Source of the DNA: Clostridium sp. CAG:302
GTDB lineage: Bacteria; Bacillota_I; Bacilli_A; RF39; UBA660
Assembly: GCA_000431795.1 (NCBI GenBank)
Contig: FR887372.1
Location: forward strand, 3,087-67,086
Direction: 5' to 3'
Length of the DNA stretch: 64,000 nucleotides
Positions within the stretch are counted from its first letter, which is position 1, and each line of letters starts with the position of its first letter. Below the pieces are notes generated by a model that was given only the letters and a program-made list of their open reading frames with translations, did no database searches and had not been told where the DNA came from. This document shows, piece after piece, positions 2,431 through 63,968 of the stretch. Both the position numbers and the translations under genes were made by a program.

Positions 2431-3436
2431 TTAATGATTATCCAAATTAATATGCATATTTAAATCTTCTTCTGTAGGTAATTTATCAAGAATATTTTTG
2501 GGAATTATGTTTTTAACTTTAAAAGAAGACACACCGATTGGTACATTTGTAGATTTTAAAGACCAATCAACTGATAATCTATCTTTATCTTTACAAAGTA
2601 ATAATCCTATTGTTGGATTATCGTTTTTCGTTCTCAAAGTTTCATCAATAGCGGTTACATAAAAACCAAGTTGCCCAGTATATTCAGGTTTAAACTTATT
2701 TACCTTGAGTTCTACAACAATATAACATCTTAACTCCAAATGATAGAACAATAAATCTATATAATAATCATTTCCATCAACAGATATTTTATATTGATTT
2801 CCAACAAAACTGAAGCCTTTTCCTAATTCTAGTAATACATCCCTTATCTTATCTAGTAAAGCTTCTTCCAATTCCTTTTCTTTGTAATTTTGATGTAATG
2901 TTATAAAGTCAAATATATATGGATCTTTAAAAGTATTATTTACTAAGTCACTATCATTTGGTGGTAATAATGCACTAAAATTATTATTAGTACCTCCTAT
3001 TCTTTTATGAAAATGGCTTTCAATTTGAATAGAAAGTACACTACGACTCCAACCATTTTTGATAGTATTTTCAGCATATATTTTCCTCAAACTTTTATCT
3101 TTGATTTTTTCAATTAAAAGTATATTGTGCCCCCCAAGGCAATTTGGCAACAAGTTGTTGCCAACTCTCATCATCCTTGTATTCTTCATAAAACAATCGC
3201 ATCGCTCTAATATTTCTTTCCGAAAATCCCTTCATTGAAGGAAAAGTTAATTTAAGTTCAGTAGAAACCTGCTTAGTAAAATTATTCCCATAAACTTTAT
3301 TTTCTGATACGATTTTTCCCAACCTGAAATATAGTTTAATTAAATTACTATTAACTTCCTGTATTGTTTTTATTTGAGTACTTATAATTTCTTTCTTCAT
3401 ATTAGCAATAATCATTTTAAAATCTTTTTCTATCAT
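2431..3436 (-). pseudogene. yhcG: YhcG/DUF1016 PDDEXK-family nuclease-like gene, frameshifted at a G6 homopolymer
   Basis: Two overlapping ORFs, 3110-3463 (N-terminal YhcG_N-like, ...QQLVAKLPWG) and 2431-3189 (C-terminal DUF1016, KDPYIFDFI...IDLLFYH...VVELK...PEYTGQLGFYV), lie in different frames. Removing one G from the GGGGGG tract (top-strand cccccc at 3131-3136) restores a continuous ...AKLPWGHNILLIEK... protein. The RBS GAGGGGG precedes the ATG at 3436. Confidence 0.7.
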
Positions 3437-3449
3437 AACATCCCCCTCA

Positions 3450-3486
3450 TTAAGCATTTTCATATAATGCTATTATTTCTTTCTTA
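3450..3486. repeat. 37-bp direct repeat, copy B
   Basis: Identical to 2220-2256. It encodes the C-terminus (KKEIIALYENA*) of the 95-aa ORF and the ATGAAAATG start context. Confidence 0.9.
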
Positions 3487-3737
3487 TTTAAATTCTTTTC
3501 TAAAGACTTAATATCTTTTATAAATTCATCATGATCTTTAGTTATATCTTCAGTCTTAGTTAATATTACTTTTTCTATATCTGATACTCCATATCTAATT
3601 AAATATAGACAATTTAAATTAACATTTCTAGAGTTATTTACAAGTAATTCTAATAAGTAATTATTTTTACTATTAATTAACTTTTCATAACTAGCATAAG
3701 ATATAAACTTAAATAAATAGTTTAGTTTATCTTCCAA
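3450..3737 (-). CDS. Hypothetical 95-aa protein, first ORF after the T-box leader (TTG start)
   Basis: ORF with RBS GGAAGG 7 nt before a TTG start. It sits immediately downstream of the T-box terminator. No recognisable domain. Confidence 0.4.
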   Translation of the reverse strand: MEDKLNYLFKFISYASYEKLINSKNNYLLELLVNNSRNVNLNCLYLIRYGVSDIEKVILTKTEDITKDHDEFIKDIKSLEKNLNKKEIIALYENA

Positions 3738-3759
3738 TTTAATACCTTCCTTCTAAAAA

Positions 3760-3962
3760 AGAAAAAAGATGATACCATAAAAGGACGAATTAATATCCGC
3801 GGTACCACCTTTCTTTATAACATAAGTTATACTCTTAAATCTTTAACCTGATTAACGGTATAAAACTAAAGGGTGAATTCATACTAAATAATTAACTCTT
3901 CTTTCACCCTCTAAGAGCTCGCTAATAATTATTTTTATAGTATTACTACTTCCTCATCACTG
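3760..3962 (-). promoter_or_regulatory. T-box riboswitch leader (presumed Phe-responsive) with terminator
   Basis: Minus strand contains GAAAGGUGGUACCGCGG (top 3796-3812), matching the conserved T-box sequence AGGGUGGNACCGCG. Upstream is a Stem-I-like AGAGGGUGAA...UUCACCCU helix. Downstream is a hairpin plus UCUUUUUUCUUUUUU run. It lies upstream of the operon ending in pheS-pheT. Confidence 0.7.
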
Positions 3963-3967
3963 TCTTA

Positions 3968-4510
3968 TTATATAGTCATTAAATCTTTTTCTTTCTCTTT
4001 TAATTTTTCATCTACAATTTTATTATATTCATTAATTAAATCTTGTACTCTTTCATTACCTCTTTTTTCTTCATCCTCAGGTAATTCTAAGTTTTCTAAT
4101 GCTTTATTAGCATCTTGTCTAATATTTCTAAGAGCTATTTTTGCTTCTTCACCTAACCCTTTAACTTGTTTTACTAATTCTTTTCTTCTATCTTCAGTAA
4201 GTGGTGGTATTACTATAAATACTACTTCTCCATTGTTATTAGGAGTTACTCCTAAATTAGCTTCAAAGATAGCCTTTTCTATTGCTCCAAGACATGATCT
4301 ATCAAATGGTTTAATAGATAATTGCCTAGCCTCAGGTATAGATATATTTGCTAAACTTTTAAGTGGTGTTGGTACTCCATAATATTCTACCATAATACCA
4401 TCTAACATATTAGGATTAGCTCTACCTGCTCTAACATTAGTAAACTTGTTTTCTAAAGATTCAATTGTTAACATCATCTTTTCTTCTGTACTATTTAATA
4501 TTTCTTCCAT
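3968..4510 (-). CDS. frr: Ribosome recycling factor
   Basis: The 180-aa product carries the typical RRF sequence (MLDGIMVEYYGVPTPL...IPPLTEDRRKELVK). Confidence 0.9.
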   Translation of the reverse strand: MEEILNSTEEKMMLTIESLENKFTNVRAGRANPNMLDGIMVEYYGVPTPLKSLANISIPEARQLSIKPFDRSCLGAIEKAIFEANLGVTPNNNGEVVFIVIPPLTEDRRKELVKQVKGLGEEAKIALRNIRQDANKALENLELPEDEEKRGNERVQDLINEYNKIVDEKLKEKEKDLMTI

Positions 4511-58600: not shown

Positions 58601-59122
58601 TTATAATTCTATTACTCTTACATCTTCTTTATATTTTTTAATTGAAGTAACTATTTTATTCTTATATTGAATAGGAAACATAAGTTTCATTTTAGAAGTA
58701 TTAAAATTTATATTTATAGAATATTTTCCTATTATTATACTTGATATTTGATCCATTTCCAATTCTATTTTACATTTATTAAATTCATCAGTAATAGTGT
58801 TTTCATTTATAATTAATGTACCACCAACATTACCATCTTTAAAGACTTTATAATTCTTTATAAATAAGATCATATAAGATAAATAAGATACTAAAAAGTA
58901 TATTGATATATATTTTAAAATATTAGTAAAAATAGTAGGTTCTATTCTGTCAACTACAAAAATATAAAATGCAAATACAAATATATATAATATACATTTA
59001 AATATTTGATTAACTATAATTATATTACCAGCCTTTTCTATCTTCTTAAGTCTTTGGCTTATTACAGTTAATTCATTATAATATTTAAATGTTTCCCTTG
59101 ATGCTTCATATTTTATTTTCAT
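58601..59122 (-). CDS. Hypothetical membrane protein (two transmembrane segments plus C-terminal PH-like/YcxB-like domain)
   Basis: The 173-aa product has no clear motif. Confidence 0.4.
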   Translation of the reverse strand: MKIKYEASRETFKYYNELTVISQRLKKIEKAGNIIIVNQIFKCILYIFVFAFYIFVVDRIEPTIFTNILKYISIYFLVSYLSYMILFIKNYKVFKDGNVGGTLIINENTITDEFNKCKIELEMDQISSIIIGKYSININFNTSKMKLMFPIQYKNKIVTSIKKYKEDVRVIEL

Positions 59123-59239: not shown

Positions 59240-59743
59240 TTACTTATCTTTTCTTTTTATTCCTTTTAATAGAGTTCCAGTAATACCATTTTCTATAACA
59301 CCTTTTACTGTACCTCTAGTATCAAATCCAAGTACATCATCTACTTTATCAAAAGCATTTTTAACCTTTTTTACGCCACGATCAGACATAGTTGTACCTG
59401 TTACAGCATCAGTAACTTTAGTAACAAATTTTACTGCTTCAATAGCATTATCAAACTTAATAGTAAAGTTATTTTTAATAGTTTGTATGTATACTTCACT
59501 ATTCTTTTGATGAACTTGTACCTTATTATTATATAACTTAATATCACTAATATTTACTATATTAATTACTTTTTTATTTTCTTCTTTCTTTAAAAGACTT
59601 ACTTTTTTAATTTCTACCTTTTCAATTATTATCTTTTTTGAAGTAAGTGTTAATAATAATTTATCTTCTACATCATTATAATATACTTCTGTAGTTAATA
59701 ATATTACTTCATCTTCCGCTAGTTCATAATTTTCCATATTCAT
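59240..59743 (-). CDS. Hypothetical protein, possible bacterial PH-like domain
   Basis: The 167-aa product starts MNMENYELAEDEVILLTTEVYY... Its promoter/RBS/first 5 codons are duplicated upstream of the ATPase gene. Confidence 0.45.
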   Translation of the reverse strand: MNMENYELAEDEVILLTTEVYYNDVEDKLLLTLTSKKIIIEKVEIKKVSLLKKEENKKVINIVNISDIKLYNNKVQVHQKNSEVYIQTIKNNFTIKFDNAIEAVKFVTKVTDAVTGTTMSDRGVKKVKNAFDKVDDVLGFDTRGTVKGVIENGITGTLLKGIKRKDK

Positions 59744-59847
59744 TCCTCCACATATATTATATCACATAAATACTTCATAACATAGACCTTAGGCTATGTT
59801 ATGCCTCTTAAGACTACAGGCTTAAGAGGACATATACAAAAAGCAAT
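59733..59847. repeat. About 115-bp direct repeat, left copy (contains double-hairpin element copy 4, an extended -10 promoter and RBS/ATG)
   Basis: About 93% identical to 61933-62049. Confidence 0.85.
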
Positions 59848-59868
59848 AAATTTATAAAATATTATCAC

Positions 59869-60822
59869 CTAAAATTTATTCTTAAAATCATTCATAAATT
59901 TCTTATATTTATTAAATTCATTATCCTTATTATTTATTTGAAGAACATATAATATTTTTCCATATAGTATATTTATATATTTTTCTTTTTCTATATCTAT
60001 ATTTCTTTTCTTTAAGTGAGATTCCAAACCAAATTTTCTTATATAATATATTTCCTGTCTTATTTCTTTACGATATTTTGCACTAACCTGTACTTTTTCA
60101 TTAACTACTATTCCAGTTACATTTTGATTAGATGATTTATGTATTATATGTATTTTTTTATTATTTAATTCTAATCCTAACTTATATAACATTTTTCTTA
60201 CTTTAACTATAACTTCTCTTGGATTAAATTCTCCTGAAAATGTCATATCATCTGAATATCTTGTATACGATATATTATTTTCTTCACACCATAACCCTAA
60301 TACTTCATCAAACTCTTTCATTACTAAATTTGAAATATATGCAGATGTAGGAGCACCTTGCATTAGATAATCATCATAAGTACATAAATAAGTTAATATC
60401 ATCCCTACTGATTTAGGAAAATATTCTATTGAAAAACAAGAATTGTATACATCTATAAAAGATATATTTTCAAAAAAATCTTTAATATCTAATTTTAAAA
60501 TTAATTCTTTATTTAAATGTGGAATAGCATTATCTTTCAAATTAATACCCTTATGGTATGCTTTTGCATATTTAGATATTGCTTTATTATCAAGAATTTT
60601 TACTAATATTTGCCTTTGAATATGCTTTAAAAGTGAATTTGGTTCATATATCGTTCTATATTTCCCATTTTTCTTTTTTATTTTATATATTTTATAATTG
60701 TTTTCTATATTATTACTAATAGAATAAATGGTATTCAAATATTTCTTTTTATCTTTACAATTAAACAATTTGAGAGATAGTAAAAATTCATTACATTCTT
60801 CTTTACCTATGTATTTCCACAT
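59869..60822 (-). CDS. Retron-type reverse transcriptase
   Basis: RT motifs 1-7: KKKNGKYRTIYEPNSLLKHIQ, LDIKDFFENI, LMQGAPTSAYISNLVM, YTRYSDDMTFSG (cf. Ec86 YTRYADDLTLS), and the retron-specific NQNVTGIVVN (VTG motif). Likely start MWKYIGKEE, with RBS GGGAGG 8 nt upstream. The 5' 69 nt of the track ORF belong to the upstream ncRNA region. Confidence 0.85.
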   Translation of the reverse strand: MWKYIGKEECNEFLLSLKLFNCKDKKKYLNTIYSISNNIENNYKIYKIKKKNGKYRTIYEPNSLLKHIQRQILVKILDNKAISKYAKAYHKGINLKDNAIPHLNKELILKLDIKDFFENISFIDVYNSCFSIEYFPKSVGMILTYLCTYDDYLMQGAPTSAYISNLVMKEFDEVLGLWCEENNISYTRYSDDMTFSGEFNPREVIVKVRKMLYKLGLELNNKKIHIIHKSSNQNVTGIVVNEKVQVSAKYRKEIRQEIYYIRKFGLESHLKKRNIDIEKEKYINILYGKILYVLQINNKDNEFNKYKKFMNDFKNKF

Positions 60823-61012
60823 CTTTACTACCTCCCAACTATTGCAGTGCTCATGATATTGTAATATGGAGATGAACTCAAAGCGTAGCATAGCGAAGCG
60901 ACTACATGAAATGTAGGTAAGTTCATTGAAGTATTACTATTAAATCATCTTAAATAAATTAGTCCCTTAACGACTCGTTAAAGTAGGAAATAATTCCAAT
61001 CACCACTGCCGA
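60823..61012 (-). ncRNA. Candidate retron msr-msd non-coding RNA
   Basis: A locally GC-enriched, highly structured 190 nt sits between an extended -10 promoter and the RT RBS. a1/a2 inverted repeats are GGCAGUGGUGAU (61011-60999) and AUCAUGAGCACUGC (60857-60844). msr-like hairpins are GGAAuuauUUCC and UUAACGaguCGUUAA. A long msd-like stem AUGAACU...AGUUCAU encloses CUACAUuucAUGUAG. Confidence 0.65.
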
Positions 61013-61016
61013 GAAT

Positions 61017-61027
61017 ATTATATCACA
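61017..61027 (-). promoter_or_regulatory. Extended -10 promoter (TGTGATATAAT) for msr-msd/RT
   Basis: Minus-strand TGtGATATAAT lies immediately after the ATPase stop codon. Confidence 0.55.
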
Positions 61028-61033
61028 ATAATT

Positions 61034-61900
61034 TTATTTTTTATCAAATTCTTCTTCATATTGTTTAAAAAAATTATAGTATACTAATACATTAGATAGT
61101 TCTGTCCATTTTTTTGTTACAACAGGTGTATCATCTAAATCATAAATCTTAGCGTCCATTAGTTTTAATAAAAATGGTGAATGTGTTGATATTATAAATT
61201 GACAATTATAAAATCTAGTAGAGTCTTCAATAAACCTTTTTAACTTCAATTGATTTTCCGCAGATAAACTATTTTCTGGTTCATCTAATATATAAATACT
61301 ATCTTCTTTTATCTCTCTTTCCCAAAACATAAGTGCAGATTCACCATTTGACCATTCAATTATATTATTATTACCTAATCTTTCTCTAACAAATTTAGAC
61401 ATTGATTTTCTTTTACTATCATAACTCATTTTTAATTCATCATAATTATCAAAAGAGTTACCATTATTATTAAATTTATAATCTAAATATTCTTTACTTA
61501 ATCTTTCCTTTTGTCTATTAACATTTGCATTAATAGAACGAACATCTATTAAATAATCAAAAACATCATCACTTGTAATTAATTTTATTTCCATTGGTTG
61601 TTCAAAAGACATTTCATAATCACAATGTTCAACATATAAATCAAAATATGAACCTTTATCTATTGGCGACTTCCTTGATGCATTTAATTTTTGTGAAATC
61701 ATATTTATAAGAGTTGTTTTACCAGAACCATTACCACCATAAAATATTGTTATTTTATCAAAATTTATCTCTTTAAATGATTTCGATGAAAATAAATGAA
61801 GTGGATAATTATTATTAAATATGTTTCTTCTCTCTTCATTAAATTCAATATTATGTTCTTGGATTTCATCTAATAATGTAAATTTTTTTAAATAAACCAT
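61034..61900 (-). CDS. ABC/OLD-like AAA ATPase (Walker A GGNGSGKTT, Walker B ILDEPE, H-loop STHSP); candidate retron effector/accessory protein
   Basis: The 288-aa product has the complete minimal ABC-type ATPase motif set. It sits immediately upstream of the msr-msd promoter, with its own TGGTATAAT promoter and RBS AGGAGGTG. Confidence 0.7.
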   Translation of the reverse strand: MVYLKKFTLLDEIQEHNIEFNEERRNIFNNNYPLHLFSSKSFKEINFDKITIFYGGNGSGKTTLINMISQKLNASRKSPIDKGSYFDLYVEHCDYEMSFEQPMEIKLITSDDVFDYLIDVRSINANVNRQKERLSKEYLDYKFNNNGNSFDNYDELKMSYDSKRKSMSKFVRERLGNNNIIEWSNGESALMFWEREIKEDSIYILDEPENSLSAENQLKLKRFIEDSTRFYNCQFIISTHSPFLLKLMDAKIYDLDDTPVVTKKWTELSNVLVYYNFFKQYEEEFDKK

Positions 61901-61932
61901 TTTTCACACCTCCTGATAAATTAAATTTATTC

Positions 61933-62049
61933 TCCATATTCATTTCCTGCACATATATTATACCACATAAATACTTCATAACATAGACCTTAGGCTATGG
62001 TATGCCTCTTAAAACTACAGGCTTAAGAGGATATATACAAAAAGCGATA
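61933..62049. repeat. About 115-bp direct repeat, right copy (contains double-hairpin element copy 5 at 61977-62030)
   Basis: It pairs with 59733-59847. It retains a vestigial MNMEN start codon context, now out of frame with the ATPase gene. Confidence 0.85.
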
Positions 62050-62177
62050 GGACTCTCGACCTATCTACATATAGCATTAATATTATGTATCTTTAAATTT
62101 AAATAATTAATTTTAATAACATTTAAAGTTTGAAAATAAAACTTGACAATTTTGTTACCTAAATGTTACCTAAAAAA

Positions 62178-62708
62178 TTATCTAGTATGTCGTCTTAAAG
62201 TTTCATCACTAGTTATTAATTCTGAAATTGAATTTCTCTGTAATTCTCGTAATTTAGAATAACTCTCTAAAAATTGTTTTTGATCTATTTTTCCTGTATT
62301 TAAAGCATGTAATAAATCTTGATACTTTATTTCCATTAATTCATATAATTTTTTTAACTTTTCTAAATACAAATTATCAATATGTTTTTCAAATTCAGTT
62401 CTAATTGCTTCTCCTTCAAATAAATCAGCTATCATTTCAATAGCAATATCACGTGAAATAATATTAGCTCTATGTATCTTATCAATTTCTTGTATTTTTG
62501 AAAAAGTGCTTTCAGATATCATATCAAATGATTCAGGAATATCATATCTAACTCTAGAATTTACTCCCCTTTGAGCAACAACCTGTTTTACTAAATTTAA
62601 TGTTTTTTTATCATCAATTAAAATAGAATTATTTACAGCATTTATAGATAAATTATTATCAACTACGTTTATTTCCTTAAAATCTTTTTTATTATTTATA
62701 TCAGTCAT
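62178..62708 (-). CDS. Hypothetical protein (176 aa)
   Basis: ORF with no recognisable motif. Confidence 0.4.
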   Translation of the reverse strand: MTDINNKKDFKEINVVDNNLSINAVNNSILIDDKKTLNLVKQVVAQRGVNSRVRYDIPESFDMISESTFSKIQEIDKIHRANIISRDIAIEMIADLFEGEAIRTEFEKHIDNLYLEKLKKLYELMEIKYQDLLHALNTGKIDQKQFLESYSKLRELQRNSISELITSDETLRRHTR

Positions 62709-62755: not shown

Positions 62756-63025
62756 TTAAAATAATGGAGATATAAGTTGTGAGTAAACAGTTCTTAAATC
62801 TTCTTCGGCTATTTTTAAATCTCTTAAAATAGAGTATGCAACTTCAATTTTAATATTATGAAAACAAGAATCATCAATAAGTATATTTTTTATTTTTAAT
62901 TGTTTTTTATACTCAATATCATTGCCTTTATAATAATTAATTAGTTTATTGTTTATATTTCTTAACTTATTTAGCATTATGCCTGACTCCTTCCAATATT
63001 CCTGGTACTCTATTACCATCCGCAA
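62756..63025 (-). CDS. Hypothetical protein (89 aa)
   Basis: ORF overlapping the upstream gene end. The start may be the internal Met near 62977. Confidence 0.35.
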   Translation of the reverse strand: MRMVIEYQEYWKESGIMLNKLRNINNKLINYYKGNDIEYKKQLKIKNILIDDSCFHNIKIEVAYSILRDLKIAEEDLRTVYSQLISPLF

Positions 63026-63968
63026 AATATCTAAATTCGCCTATATTAAAACTTTCTTGTAATTGTTGTAATGATATTGGAACCAATCCATTTATTCCTT
63101 CTAAAATATAATATTCATTTTCATTTGGATTATCTTTAATAGATGTCTTGTTAATTGCAAATACTATTATAGGAATTGACTTTTTTTGTTCTTCTAAAAA
63201 TCTTTTACCGATAATTGTAGCAAAGCAATTGTCCTTTAATTCTTTTTCATTAAATATATTTCCTCCTAGTAAGAAAACATCGTTTATAAATTCTAATCCC
63301 AGAAATTCAGATTGCTTTACTTTACTGAAAAATATTGCTATTTTATCTTCAATTTTTACTGGTCTTAAATTGTCCGTTATTTCTATATAATCATCAACTT
63401 CTTTTTCAAAATTATATGGCTTAATTTCTGCCCCGTTTGTTACCATTCCATAAACTTTATTTATAGTTTCTTTAAACTTCTTTTTTTCTTCTTCATCATT
63501 ATGTAAACTTTTAATCTCTTTTAATTCATAATTATGTTTTGCTAGTGATAAATCTCCTACCATAGCATTTATTGAAATACTAAAAATTTGATTATCAACA
63601 TTAACTGCAAAACCAGGATGCCATTTACCATATCTTTGCTCAAAGTATTCTCTTTCATCAACTACTTCAACAGGCGCATCTTCAAATAATTCGGTATCAT
63701 ACACATAAGAATTAATACCTATCATTGATAAAATTTTTCCATAAATTGCAACAAATTCCCAGCACACAACTGAGTTATTCGATTCATTAATATTTGCTAG
63801 ATTATCAATTTTTGTATGATTCGTACTAGACATTTCTTTTTTAGATAAAGCTCTTGTAATATATAGTAAAAATTCATCATCATAGGATAATAATTTACAT
63901 AATTTTATATAAACATATATTGCTTTTTCAAGTTGAGTTATATTCTCTGGAATACTTGAAATTATCAT
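62967..63968 (-). CDS. Hypothetical protein (333 aa)
   Basis: ORF with no recognisable motif. Another minus-strand ORF appears to start beyond the window end. Confidence 0.4.
   Translation of the reverse strand: MIISSIPENITQLEKAIYVYIKLCKLLSYDDEFLLYITRALSKKEMSSTNHTKIDNLANINESNNSVVCWEFVAIYGKILSMIGINSYVYDTELFEDAPVEVVDEREYFEQRYGKWHPGFAVNVDNQIFSISINAMVGDLSLAKHNYELKEIKSLHNDEEEKKKFKETINKVYGMVTNGAEIKPYNFEKEVDDYIEITDNLRPVKIEDKIAIFFSKVKQSEFLGLEFINDVFLLGGNIFNEKELKDNCFATIIGKRFLEEQKKSIPIIVFAINKTSIKDNPNENEYYILEGINGLVPISLQQLQESFNIGEFRYFADGNRVPGILEGVRHNAK

What the first reader, a model, noticed from the sequence alone, without database searches (positions are those of the whole stretch)
60823..61030. Candidate msr-msd: extended -10 promoter, a1/a2 inverted repeats, msr hairpins and long msd stem
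TGTGATATAAT lies directly after the ATPase stop. About 190 nt further, the RT RBS GGGAGG is found. The 5' end of the RNA (CUCGGCAGUGGUGAU) and its 3' end (AUCAUGAGCACUGC) form an a1/a2-type inverted repeat. That leaves conserved G residues just 3' of a1 as candidate branching G. Two short msr-type hairpins (GGAAUUAUUUCC, UUAACGAGUCGUUAA) follow. A long imperfect stem (AUGAACU ... AGUUCAU) encloses a perfect CUACAU/AUGUAG hairpin, as expected for msd. The track ORF start MLRFEFISILQYHEHCNS is an artefact of reading through this RNA.
Basis: seen in the sequence. Interest (0 to 1): 0.7.

Follow-up and report, generated by a model that had tools for sequence, protein, structure and literature searches.

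The report
Ec107-type retron non-coding RNA

Summary
It is one unit: an extended -10 promoter, a structured RNA of about 166 nt (61009-60844), an RBS, and a 317-aa retron reverse transcriptase (RT).

The single-sequence fold is no better than shuffled sequence (z -0.41). The comparative evidence is decisive:
- More than 60 related loci from uncultured gut Bacilli keep the same RNA upstream of the RT, whatever lies further upstream.
- On an unbiased MAFFT alignment, 97.7% of cells are paired and 18 pairs carry compensatory changes. None of 500 shuffles reaches this.
- Two opposing, nearly invariant G residues close the a1/a2 stem.
- A covariance model built only from these sequences finds the experimentally validated Ec107 msr-msd in E. 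coli. The RT is 41% identical to RT-Ec107.

- The supported a1/a2 stem is only 6 bp (GCAGUG/CACUGC).
- The likely priming G is 61003, not the UUGG residues, which belong to hairpin 1.
- The predicted msDNA is about 103-107 nt.

The ATPase is the only recurrent neighbour (8 of 65 loci). It is absent from most relatives, and it also occurs without the RT. Its role as an effector is open.

This is a known class; a published "Ec107_like" model exists.

The parts
61017..61025 (-). Extended -10 promoter TGaTATAAT. The predicted transcription start is at about 61010-61009.
   Evidence: Read from the sequence. It is conserved at a fixed distance from a1 in 61 distinct loci with unrelated upstream DNA: 51 have a perfect TATAAT and 55 have the TG. 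The start site is inferred from spacing, not mapped.
61004..61009 (-). a1 arm GCAGUG, the 5' strand of the closing stem.
   Evidence: Pairs with 60849-60844. 99.4% of cells are paired, and 4 of 6 pairs show compensatory change, for example GC to AU in 11 sequences. Same result on the CM alignment.
61003..61003 (-). Candidate priming (branching) G.
   Evidence: G in 63 of 64 sequences. It sits directly after a1, opposite the G at 60850. In the CM alignment it aligns with the G of AAUAGCG in Ec107. Simon 2019 places the priming G in a conserved AGC. The assignment is inferred.
60986..60997 (-). msr hairpin 1, GGAAUUAUUUCC.
   Evidence: 100% of cells paired, and all 3 scored pairs show compensatory change.
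60965..60983 (-). msr hairpin 2, CUUUAACGAGUCGUUAAGG, with the conserved GAGUC loop at 60976-60972.
   Evidence: 8 bp, 100% paired. 7 of 8 pairs are compensated once the GC-rich relatives are included. The same CGAGUCG loop occurs in Ec107 and in the Mestre-400, 412, 443 and 482 ncRNAs; Mestre-430 has the variant GGAGUCC.
60851..60957 (-). Predicted msd template, reverse transcribed into an msDNA of about 103-107 nt. The 5' boundary is uncertain within 60957-60953.
   Evidence: By analogy. In Ec107 (107 nt), Mestre-443 and Mestre-482, the template begins 19-23 nt 3' of the G of GAGUC and ends next to the opposing G (using data). The predicted DNA folds at -10.9 kcal/mol, z -2.0. Not measured.
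60861..60937 (-). msd stem-loop. Outer stem GUAAUA/UAUUAC (60937-60932 with 60866-60861). Middle stem UGAAC/GUUCA (60925-60921 with 60877-60873). Apical hairpin CUACAU/AUGUAG (60916-60911 with 60907-60902).
   Evidence: 98.6-100% of cells paired in each helix. Compensatory changes are seen in 2, 3 and 1 pairs on the MAFFT alignment, and in 4, 6 and 3 pairs on the CM alignment, which merges the two extra A-U pairs into the middle helix.
60850..60850 (-). Opposing G at the inner end of the a1/a2 stem.
   Evidence: G in 65 of 66 sequences. Mestre 2020 describes 'two opposing G residues' as a hallmark of the retron ncRNA.
60844..60849 (-). a2 arm CACUGC, the 3' strand of the closing stem.
60831..60836 (-). 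Ribosome-binding site GGGAGG of the RT gene.
   Evidence: Lies 8 nt before the ATG at 60822. GGAGG is nearly invariant in the alignment.
59869..60822 (-). Retron reverse transcriptase, 317 aa. Motifs: NAIPH (aa 98), QGAPTS (155), YSDD (189), VTG (235).
   Evidence: PADLOC RT_Ec107-like 1.3e-130 over the full length, and RT_III-A 1.7e-104. Pfam RVT_1. 41% identity to RT-Ec107, E 2e-85. Motifs.
59776..59803 (-). Terminator-like hairpin after the RT gene.
   Evidence: Consensus scan: 2 sites found against 0.3 expected.
61034..61900 (-). 288-aa ABC-type ATPase with Walker A GGNGSGKT (aa 55), signature SNGE (184), Walker B IYILDE (202) and THS (239). It is a neighbour and a possible, unproven partner of the retron.
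   Evidence: Pfam AAA_15 and AAA_21. Only weak generic hits to PtuA, AriA and mad3. Same gene and same junction in 7 of 64 related loci and in three further ATPase clusters. It is absent from most relatives and occurs without an RT elsewhere.

Best explanation
This is the msr-msd non-coding RNA of a retron of the Ec107 (Retron-Eco5) lineage, carried by an uncultured, AT-rich gut member of the Bacilli.

Proposed mechanism:
1. An extended -10 promoter (61025-61017) starts transcription at about 61010. The transcript runs through the RNA and the RT gene to the hairpin at 59803-59776.
2. The 5' part folds. A 6-bp a1/a2 stem (61009-61004 with 60849-60844) is closed by two opposing G residues. Two msr hairpins follow (60997-60986 and 60983-60965), the second with a conserved GAGUC loop. 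Then comes a three-tier msd stem-loop (60937-60861).
3. The RT (60822-59869) binds the msr hairpins and primes on the 2'-OH of G61003. It copies the RNA from about 60851 back to about 60955 and stops 19-23 nt after the GAGUC loop. Host RNase H removes the template. The product is a branched RNA-DNA molecule with an msDNA of about 103-107 nt.
4. As in other retrons, the RT-msDNA complex presumably acts as a sensor in phage defence.

Shown here: conservation of the promoter, of the structure with covariation, and of the RT motifs; and homology to the Ec107 RT and ncRNA.
Inferred by homology: the priming G, the msDNA ends, and msDNA production itself.
Open: the effector. I lean towards a self-contained 'orphan' ncRNA+RT module. 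The upstream ATPase would then be at most a facultative partner (about 0.3).
For: Homologous loci. 64 loci carry RT relatives at 45-98% identity. All keep the same upstream RNA, although their flanks differ.

RNAalifold finds 34 pairs, 15 of them compensated.

Curated structure on the MAFFT alignment of 52 sequences:
- 97.7% of cells paired.
- 18 pairs and 86 cells changed on both sides.
- 0 of 500 shuffles reach any of these measures.
- Slid controls give 3-6 pairs and 33-51% paired.

CM alignment of 63 distinct sequences, including RT relatives at 45-50% identity: 99.1% paired, and 27 of 35 pairs compensated.

The opposing G residues are conserved in 63/64 and 65/66 sequences.

The CM gives a single strong hit in the whole window (184 bits).

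Link to Ec107. The CM contains no E. coli sequence, yet it finds the validated Ec107 msr-msd between pyrE and the RT. This is the only hit in 5.2 kb with an E-value below 1 (27.8 bits, E 4e-4). The window RT is 41% identical to RT-Ec107 and matches RT_Ec107-like at 1.3e-130. It carries NAXXH, VTG and YxDD.

Relatives with the same architecture produced sequenced RT-DNA in E. coli: Mestre-430, 443 and 482 (PMC10849725 supplement).
Against: - No direct evidence of transcription or of msDNA from this locus or from any of its close relatives.
- The single-sequence fold is unremarkable (z -0.41), and Rfam has no matching family.
- The a1/a2 stem is only 6 bp, against 13-17 bp in Ec107, Mestre-443 and Mestre-482.
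- The base after the priming G is U, not the C of the usual AGC. The window has GGU.
- One relative (L023) has A at the priming position.
- Several clade-2 retrons in the census gave little or no RT-DNA in E. coli.
- The CM alignment is fitted to the model, so its pair counts lean towards the structure.
Confidence: 0.88

Rival explanations
1. Three-part defence cassette. The upstream ABC-type ATPase is the retron's effector or partner. ATPase, ncRNA and RT then work together as in Retron-Eco8, where the same gene order is found and all three parts are needed.
For: - The ATPase stop lies 8 nt before the retron's extended -10 element, with no terminator between them.
- The same ATPase with the same junction occurs in 7 of 64 related genome loci (8 of 65 with the window). 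These fall in three separate RT subclades.
- It also occurs in three further ATPase clusters of 85% identity or more.
- The outer flanks differ: Fic, nucleotidyltransferase, HD_3, HD, DHHA1 and unknown proteins. The three parts therefore travel together.
- It is the only recurrent neighbour. Among 101 immediate neighbours of RT-only loci, no Pfam family occurs more than 4 times and no PADLOC family more than once.
- Two RT-only loci (L002, L007) carry weak remnants of the ATPase 3' end (z about 3.8).
- Eco8 precedent: Millman 2020.
Against: - 57 of 65 loci, including sisters of ATPase-linked RTs, have ncRNA+RT without it.
- ATPase homologues of 74-83% identity occur without an RT. They sit next to DUF5680, DUF87, DUF2207_C, a 220-aa protein, or nothing.
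- A relative with a 98% identical RT (L057) has a nonsense codon in the ATPase while its RT and ncRNA are intact.
- The protein is a bare 288-aa ABC ATPase with no nuclease or other effector domain.
- Its matches to PtuA, AriA and the I-B ATPase are weak and generic.
Confidence: 0.3
2. A structured 5' leader that only regulates RT expression (attenuator or RNA-stability element) and is never reverse transcribed.
For: It lies directly upstream of the RT start codon in one transcription unit. No msDNA data exist for this lineage. The a1/a2 stem is short.
Against: The RNA is homologous, helix by helix, to the Ec107 msr-msd and to RNAs whose RT-DNA was sequenced. The opposing G residues and the GAGUC hairpin are conserved. 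The RT carries the retron-specific NAXXH and VTG motifs.
Confidence: 0.05
3. The region is coding: the RT starts at the ATG at 60891 (340-aa ORF), and the hairpins are incidental.
For: An uninterrupted ORF runs from 60891. Some gene callers report 340-aa products (P0001, P0003-P0005).
Against: The ATG at 60891 lies in a segment with indels of 10-21 nt that are not multiples of 3. It is absent from all but the closest relatives. Substitutions there follow base pairing, not codons. A conserved GGAGG precedes the ATG at 60822. The largest cluster starts at MWKYIG.
Confidence: 0.01

Closest known systems
Retron-Eco5 (Ec107) of E. coli, with the 'Ec107-like' orphan branch of RT clade 2 (Mestre et al. 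2020)
   Same: - The RT is 41% identical over its full length and matches the PADLOC RT_Ec107-like profile best.
- The ncRNA has the same order of parts: a1, priming G, hairpin 1, hairpin 2 with a CGAGUCG loop, msd stem-loop, opposing G, a2. The CM cross-detects it.
- Predicted msDNA of about 103-107 nt, against 107 nt.
- No effector is conserved across the branch.
- It is inserted in ordinary chromosomal contexts, not in prophages.
   Different: - The a1/a2 stem is 6 bp here, against 17 bp.
- The RNA is 34% G+C, against 55%.
- The base after the priming G is U (GGU here, AGU in most relatives), not AGC.
- The catalytic motif is YSDD, against YCDD.
- The host is an uncultured gut member of the Bacilli, not an enterobacterium.
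- A subset carries an upstream ABC ATPase, which has not been reported for this branch.
Mestre-443 (Budvicia), Mestre-430 and Mestre-482 (Firmicutes) retrons of the experimental census (PMC10849725)
   Same: Same msr layout. Mestre-430 and 443 also share msd sequence blocks..CCAAAG.., GCACAC/GUGUGC versus CUACAC/GUGUAG, and ..CAUUUCC.. (in 430). Their RT-DNA was sequenced, which gives the boundary rule used here.
   Different: They are GC-rich and have longer a1/a2 stems. They come from other hosts. Their native effectors were not examined here.
Retron-Eco8 (type I-B2; Millman et al. 2020)
   Same: Same gene order: ATPase, a conserved intergenic ncRNA of more than 100 nt, then RT, all on one strand.
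   Different: The Eco8 effector is an OLD-type ATPase fused to a Toprim nuclease domain. The window protein is a 288-aa ABC ATPase without Toprim, and it matches the I-B ATPase profile only weakly (1.5e-11 over about 75 residues). No type I-B RT profile appears among the 25 best PADLOC matches of the RT; only the type I-C RT-Toprim profiles do.
Type III-A retrons (PRTase-like plus winged-helix effectors)
   Same: The RT is a close relative: RT_III-A profiles reach 1.7e-104. Mestre places the Ec107 branch next to PRTase-linked RTs.
   Different: No PRTase-like or winged-helix gene lies within the cassette or among its neighbours.
Retron-Eco7 (Ec78) with Septu PtuA/PtuB (type I-A)
   Same: A retron next to an ABC/AAA_15-type ATPase. 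There are weak PtuA profile hits.
   Different: There is no HNH (PtuB) gene. The PtuA NCBIfam score is 35 bits against a cut-off of 500. The gene order differs (ncRNA-RT-ATPase-HNH in Ec78), and the RT belongs to another clade.

Membership tests
Retron (msr-msd ncRNA plus RT) | RT with the retron-specific region X motif NAXXH, the VTG triplet and a YxDD catalytic core | tested here: met
   NAIPH at aa 98, VTG at 235, YSDD at 189. The motifs are defined in Mestre 2020 and Simon 2019.
Retron (msr-msd ncRNA plus RT) | Structured ncRNA next to the RT on the same strand, closed by terminal inverted repeats a1/a2 | tested here: met
   6-bp stem 61009-61004 with 60849-60844. 99.4% of cells are paired and 4 of 6 pairs are compensated. 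The stem is short compared with known retrons.
Retron (msr-msd ncRNA plus RT) | Conserved priming G at the inner end of a1/a2, opposite a second conserved G | tested here: met
   G61003 is conserved in 63 of 64 sequences and G60850 in 65 of 66. The chemistry (2'-5' branch) cannot be tested here.
Retron (msr-msd ncRNA plus RT) | One to three msr hairpins followed by a long msd stem-loop, supported by covariation | tested here: met
   Two msr hairpins and a three-tier msd stem. 18 of 40 pairs are compensated on the MAFFT alignment, with 0 of 500 shuffles reaching this. 27 of 35 are compensated on the CM alignment.
Retron (msr-msd ncRNA plus RT) | Production of branched multicopy single-stranded DNA | not testable with these tools
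   Inferred only, from relatives with sequenced RT-DNA.
Ec107-like retrons (RT clade 2 orphan branch) | RT groups with RT-Ec107 | tested here: met
   PADLOC RT_Ec107-like at 1.3e-130, covering profile positions 2-305 of 307, is the best of 52 hits. 41% identity to WP_000340183-type RT-Ec107.
Ec107-like retrons (RT clade 2 orphan branch) | ncRNA homologous to the Ec107 msr-msd | tested here: met
   CM R1 contains no E. coli sequence. It hits the Ec107 msr-msd at L098 2512-2687 with 27.8 bits and E 4e-4, and all other hits in the locus are at 7 bits or below. The published Ec107_like CM was not available and is not in Rfam.
Ec107-like retrons (RT clade 2 orphan branch) | No specific associated effector gene | tested here: inconclusive
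   57 of 65 loci have no recurrent neighbour. The window and 7 other loci carry the same upstream ATPase.
Type I-B retrons (Eco8-like) | Effector is an OLD-family ATPase fused to a Toprim domain, paired with a type I-B RT | tested here: not met
   The 288-aa protein has no Toprim domain, and no RT_I-B profile is among the 25 best PADLOC matches of the RT. Only the gene order is shared.
Type I-A retrons (Ec78 / Septu) | PtuA ATPase plus PtuB HNH nuclease | tested here: not met
   PtuA NCBIfam scores 35 bits against a cut-off of 500. No HNH gene is found among the neighbours.
Type III-A retrons | PRTase-like effector with or without a winged-helix protein | tested here: not met
   The neighbours at 62178-62708, 62756-63025, 62967-63968, 59240-59743 and 58601-59122 have no Pfam hit. 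The three scanned with PADLOC (62178-62708, 59240-59743, 58601-59122) have no hit there either.

The most novel reading that the evidence does not exclude
In part of this lineage, an otherwise effector-less Ec107-type retron has been coupled to a small stand-alone ABC/AAA_15-type ATPase with no nuclease domain. This would be a retron subtype that has not been described: the Eco8 gene order, with a clade-2 RT and a bare ATPase. In other lineages the same ATPase is followed at 2-55 nt (or overlapped) by DUF5680, DUF87, DUF2207_C or an unknown 220-aa protein. It may therefore be the constant module of a family of two-part systems, with the retron as one of several exchangeable partners.
Probability: 0.3. 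Interest if true: 0.55.

Novelty: new member of a known kind. Interest (0 to 1): 0.3.

Why it matters
The finding confirms a retron RNA from sequence alone and places it firmly in the Ec107 lineage. That lineage is the one classical retron group with no known effector or function.

It shows that this lineage is common in uncultured, small-genome gut Bacilli from humans, rabbits and ruminants. There it sits as a bare promoter-ncRNA-RT module in many different chromosomal contexts.

It gives testable coordinates for the priming G, the msDNA ends and the promoter. The very short 6-bp a1/a2 stem and the compact AT-rich scaffold of about 166 nt may interest people who engineer retrons.

The recurrent ATPase is a concrete candidate to test for the missing effector of 'orphan' retrons, but the evidence for that is mixed.

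Tried and rejected
- Rfam scan of 59500-62500 at E up to 10: only a chance snoRNA match elsewhere. Rfam does not hold this retron RNA class.
- Single-sequence folding: not informative (z -0.41).
- The consensus promoter scan did not list the real promoter, because it has no -35 box. I judged it from conservation instead.
I did not adopt it and left it out of the model.
- A third msr hairpin in the AT-rich stretch 60964-60938: no covariation signal in an all-pairs scan.
- AlphaFold2 of the ATPase on a shallow 26-sequence alignment: pLDDT 41. The model is unusable, so I ran no fold search.
- PDB sequence search of the ATPase: only generic ABC, SMC and AriA matches, at E 9e-8 or weaker.
- Search for an empty site by comparing the flanks of an ATPase-only locus (L095) with ATPase-plus-retron loci: no shared downstream genes, so insertion versus loss could not be settled.
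- Search for the conserved RNA motif in the census supplement: no near-identical tested retron, but the shared CGAGUCG hairpin turned up.
- One script call returned nothing and was repeated.

Full report
WHAT IS IN THE SEQUENCE

The feature lies on the minus strand. A 288-aa ORF (61900-61034) ends in TAA. Eight bases later comes TGaTATAAT (61025-61017). The RNA core runs from 61009 to 60844. GGGAGG follows at 60836-60831. The ATG at 60822 opens a 317-aa ORF that ends at 59869.

Terminator-like hairpins stand before the first ORF (62065-62046) and after the second (59803-59776). The scan found 2 such sites against 0.3 expected.

There is one further outer msd stem, GUAAUA/UAUUAC.

Taken alone, the fold is unremarkable: -38.5 kcal/mol, z = -0.41, and 57 of 200 shuffles fold as well. 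Rfam 15 has nothing there.

THE PROTEINS

The downstream ORF is a retron reverse transcriptase (RT).
- PADLOC RT_Ec107-like at 1.3e-130 over the whole profile, then RT_III-A at 1.7e-104.
- Pfam RVT_1.
- NCBIfam retron_St85_RT just below its cut-off.
- Motifs NAIPH, QGAPTS, YSDD and VTG.

The upstream ORF is a minimal ABC-type ATPase.
- Pfam AAA_15 and AAA_21.
- Walker A GGNGSGKT, signature SNGE, Walker B IYILDE, and THS.
- Only weak, generic similarity to PtuA, AriA, mad3 or the I-B ATPase.

None of the five other neighbouring ORFs scanned has a Pfam hit, and the three of them scanned with PADLOC have no hit there either.

COMPARATIVE EVIDENCE FOR THE RNA

A scan of one genome per species returned 64 loci with RT relatives at 45-98% identity. 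Almost all come from uncultured gut Bacilli, labelled 'Tenericutes' or 'Mollicutes' in the records, from humans, rabbits, mice and ruminants.

The 200 nt upstream of the RT are conserved in all of them, although the genes further upstream and downstream differ.

An unbiased MAFFT alignment of 52 distinct sequences (A1) gives an RNAalifold consensus of 34 pairs, 15 of them with compensatory changes.

My curated structure of 40 pairs scores as follows.
- 97.7% of cells paired.
- 18 pairs and 86 cells changed on both sides.
- Covariation score 0.178 against 0.092 for shuffles, with 0 of 500 shuffles reaching any measure.
- When the 3' partners are slid by 1-3 columns, only 3-6 pairs are compensated and 33-51% of cells are paired.

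Examples of compensation:
- GCAGUG/CACUGC to GCAGUA/UACUGC to GCAAUA/UAUUGC.
- UUAACGAGUCGUUAA to UUAGGGAGUCCCUAA.
- GGAC/GUCC to GGGC/GCCC.

I built a covariance model from a trimmed alignment (R1, 168 positions, 35 pairs).
- It gives one strong hit in the whole window (60840-61009, minus strand, 184 bits).
- It finds the RNA in every locus with an RT above 60% identity.
- It finds the RNA in two Lachnospiraceae loci with RTs at 45-50% identity. There the AU pairs are replaced wholesale by GC pairs.
- On that 63-sequence alignment, 99.1% of cells pair and 27 of 35 pairs are compensated. This alignment is fitted to the model, so it counts as corroboration only.

PROMOTER AND BOUNDARIES

In 61 distinct loci, a perfect TATAAT occurs 51 times. 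The TG extension occurs 55 times. The hexamer ends 6-8 nt before the first base of a1 in 53.

Sequence upstream of the TG is unrelated between loci. The conserved unit therefore begins at the extended -10 element, and the RNA probably begins with a1 itself.

LINK TO VALIDATED RETRONS

Mestre et al. 2020 place Ec107 in RT clade 2, on a branch of 59 RTs with no specific associated protein. A 2026 survey states that an 'Ec107_like' msr/msd covariance model exists and is among the most frequently detected.

The supplement of the experimental retron census lists ncRNAs and sequenced RT-DNAs. Ec107, Mestre-443, Mestre-430 and Mestre-482 share the same order of parts as the window: a1, then a G in an (A)GC context, then hairpin 1, then hairpin 2 with a CGAGUCG loop (GGAGUCC in Mestre-430), then an msd, then an opposing G and a2. 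Mestre-430 and Mestre-443 also share the ..CCAAAG.. block and an inner GCACAC/GUGUGC hairpin. Mestre-430 shares ..CAUUUCC.. as well.

I fetched an E. coli Ec107 locus. Model R1 contains no E. coli sequence. It hits exactly the msr-msd between pyrE and the RT (27.8 bits, E 4e-4), and all other hits in the locus are at 7 bits or below. It aligns a1+G, hairpin 2, the msd and G+a2 with one another. The two RTs are 41% identical (E 2e-85).

PRIMING G AND MSDNA

The G directly after a1 is conserved in 63 of 64 sequences. The G directly before a2 is conserved in 65 of 66. These are the 'two opposing G residues' of retron ncRNAs. The first aligns with the G of the AGC motif of Ec107.

In the window these are G61003 and G60850.

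In Mestre-443, Mestre-482 and Ec107 (107 nt), the reverse-transcribed segment starts next to the opposing G. It ends 19-23 nt 3' of the G of GAGUC. Applied here, the template is 60851 to 60953-60957, and the msDNA is about 103-107 nt. It has the + strand sequence of that interval. As DNA it folds at -10.9 kcal/mol (z -2.0).

These boundaries are inferences.

THE ORF EXTENSION

The 340-aa ORF that starts at 60891 is an artefact, for four reasons.
- Its ATG lies in a segment with indels of 10-21 nt.
- That ATG is present only in the window and L057.
- Substitutions there follow base pairing.
- The conserved GGAGG precedes the ATG at 60822, and the largest cluster starts at MWKYIG.

THE ATPASE

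For a functional link:
- The same ATPase with the same junction is found in 7 of 64 genome loci.
- It is also found in three further ATPase clusters of 85% identity or more.
- The outer flanks differ between these loci.
- The linked loci fall in three separate RT subclades.
- Two RT-only loci carry weak remnants of the ATPase 3' end.
- The gene order is that of the validated Retron-Eco8.
- No other neighbour recurs.

Against a functional link:
- Most relatives, including sister lineages, lack it.
- ATPase homologues of 74-83% identity have no RT. They sit next to DUF5680, DUF87, DUF2207_C, an unknown 220-aa protein, or nothing.
- L057 has a nonsense codon in the ATPase beside an intact retron.
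- The protein has no effector domain.

I put the three-part model at about 0.3.

VERDICT

The element is a new member of a known, already modelled class, so its interest is modest. The open point worth a follow-up is whether the small ATPase is a partner of these otherwise orphan retrons.

Noticed in passing
L059:1840-3987 (Faecalimonas sp. LCP19S3_D12): The retron RNA (CM hit at 1840-2011) lies about 1 kb from its RT (2986-3987). Between them, on the same strand, are a DUF3990 protein (2049-2534, Pfam 5.9e-47) and an 81-aa ORF. These may be an effector pair inside an Ec107-like retron.
   Followed up: partly
window 61034-61900 (-); L086, L092, L104, L107: The 288-aa ATPase family is widespread at 74-100% identity. 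In different lineages its downstream gene, 2-55 nt away or overlapping, differs: retron, DUF5680, DUF87, DUF2207_C or an unknown 220-aa protein. HD or HD_3 genes recur nearby. It looks like a constant module with exchangeable partners.
   Followed up: partly
L057:282-1148: In the closest relative (RT 98% identical), the ATPase carries GAA to TAA at codon 104, while the ncRNA and RT are intact.
   Followed up: yes
window 60879-60900 (-); A1 columns 173-193: The msd segment between the apical hairpin and the 3' strand of the middle stem is an indel hot spot of 10-21 nt. It contains a direct repeat of CGCUUCG / CUNCGC. It is unpaired in the consensus structure.
   Followed up: no
L023 (A1 column 50): One relative has A instead of G at the putative priming position. 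The invariant G two bases further on (window 61001) is retained.
   Followed up: no
window 61004-61009 with 60844-60849: The a1/a2 stem is only 6 bp here, and 8 bp in one subclade. It is 13-17 bp in Ec107, Mestre-443 and Mestre-482. It appears to start at the transcription start site.
   Followed up: partly
L002:2437-2685; L042, L043, L045: A small DUF1653 protein lies beside the retron in L002 and within about 1-1.5 kb in L042, L043 and L045. This is probably synteny and not a functional link.
   Followed up: no
L018:3017-3177: There is a second, weak CM hit next to a run of N, with a duplicated RT 5' end. This is most likely an assembly artefact.
   Followed up: no
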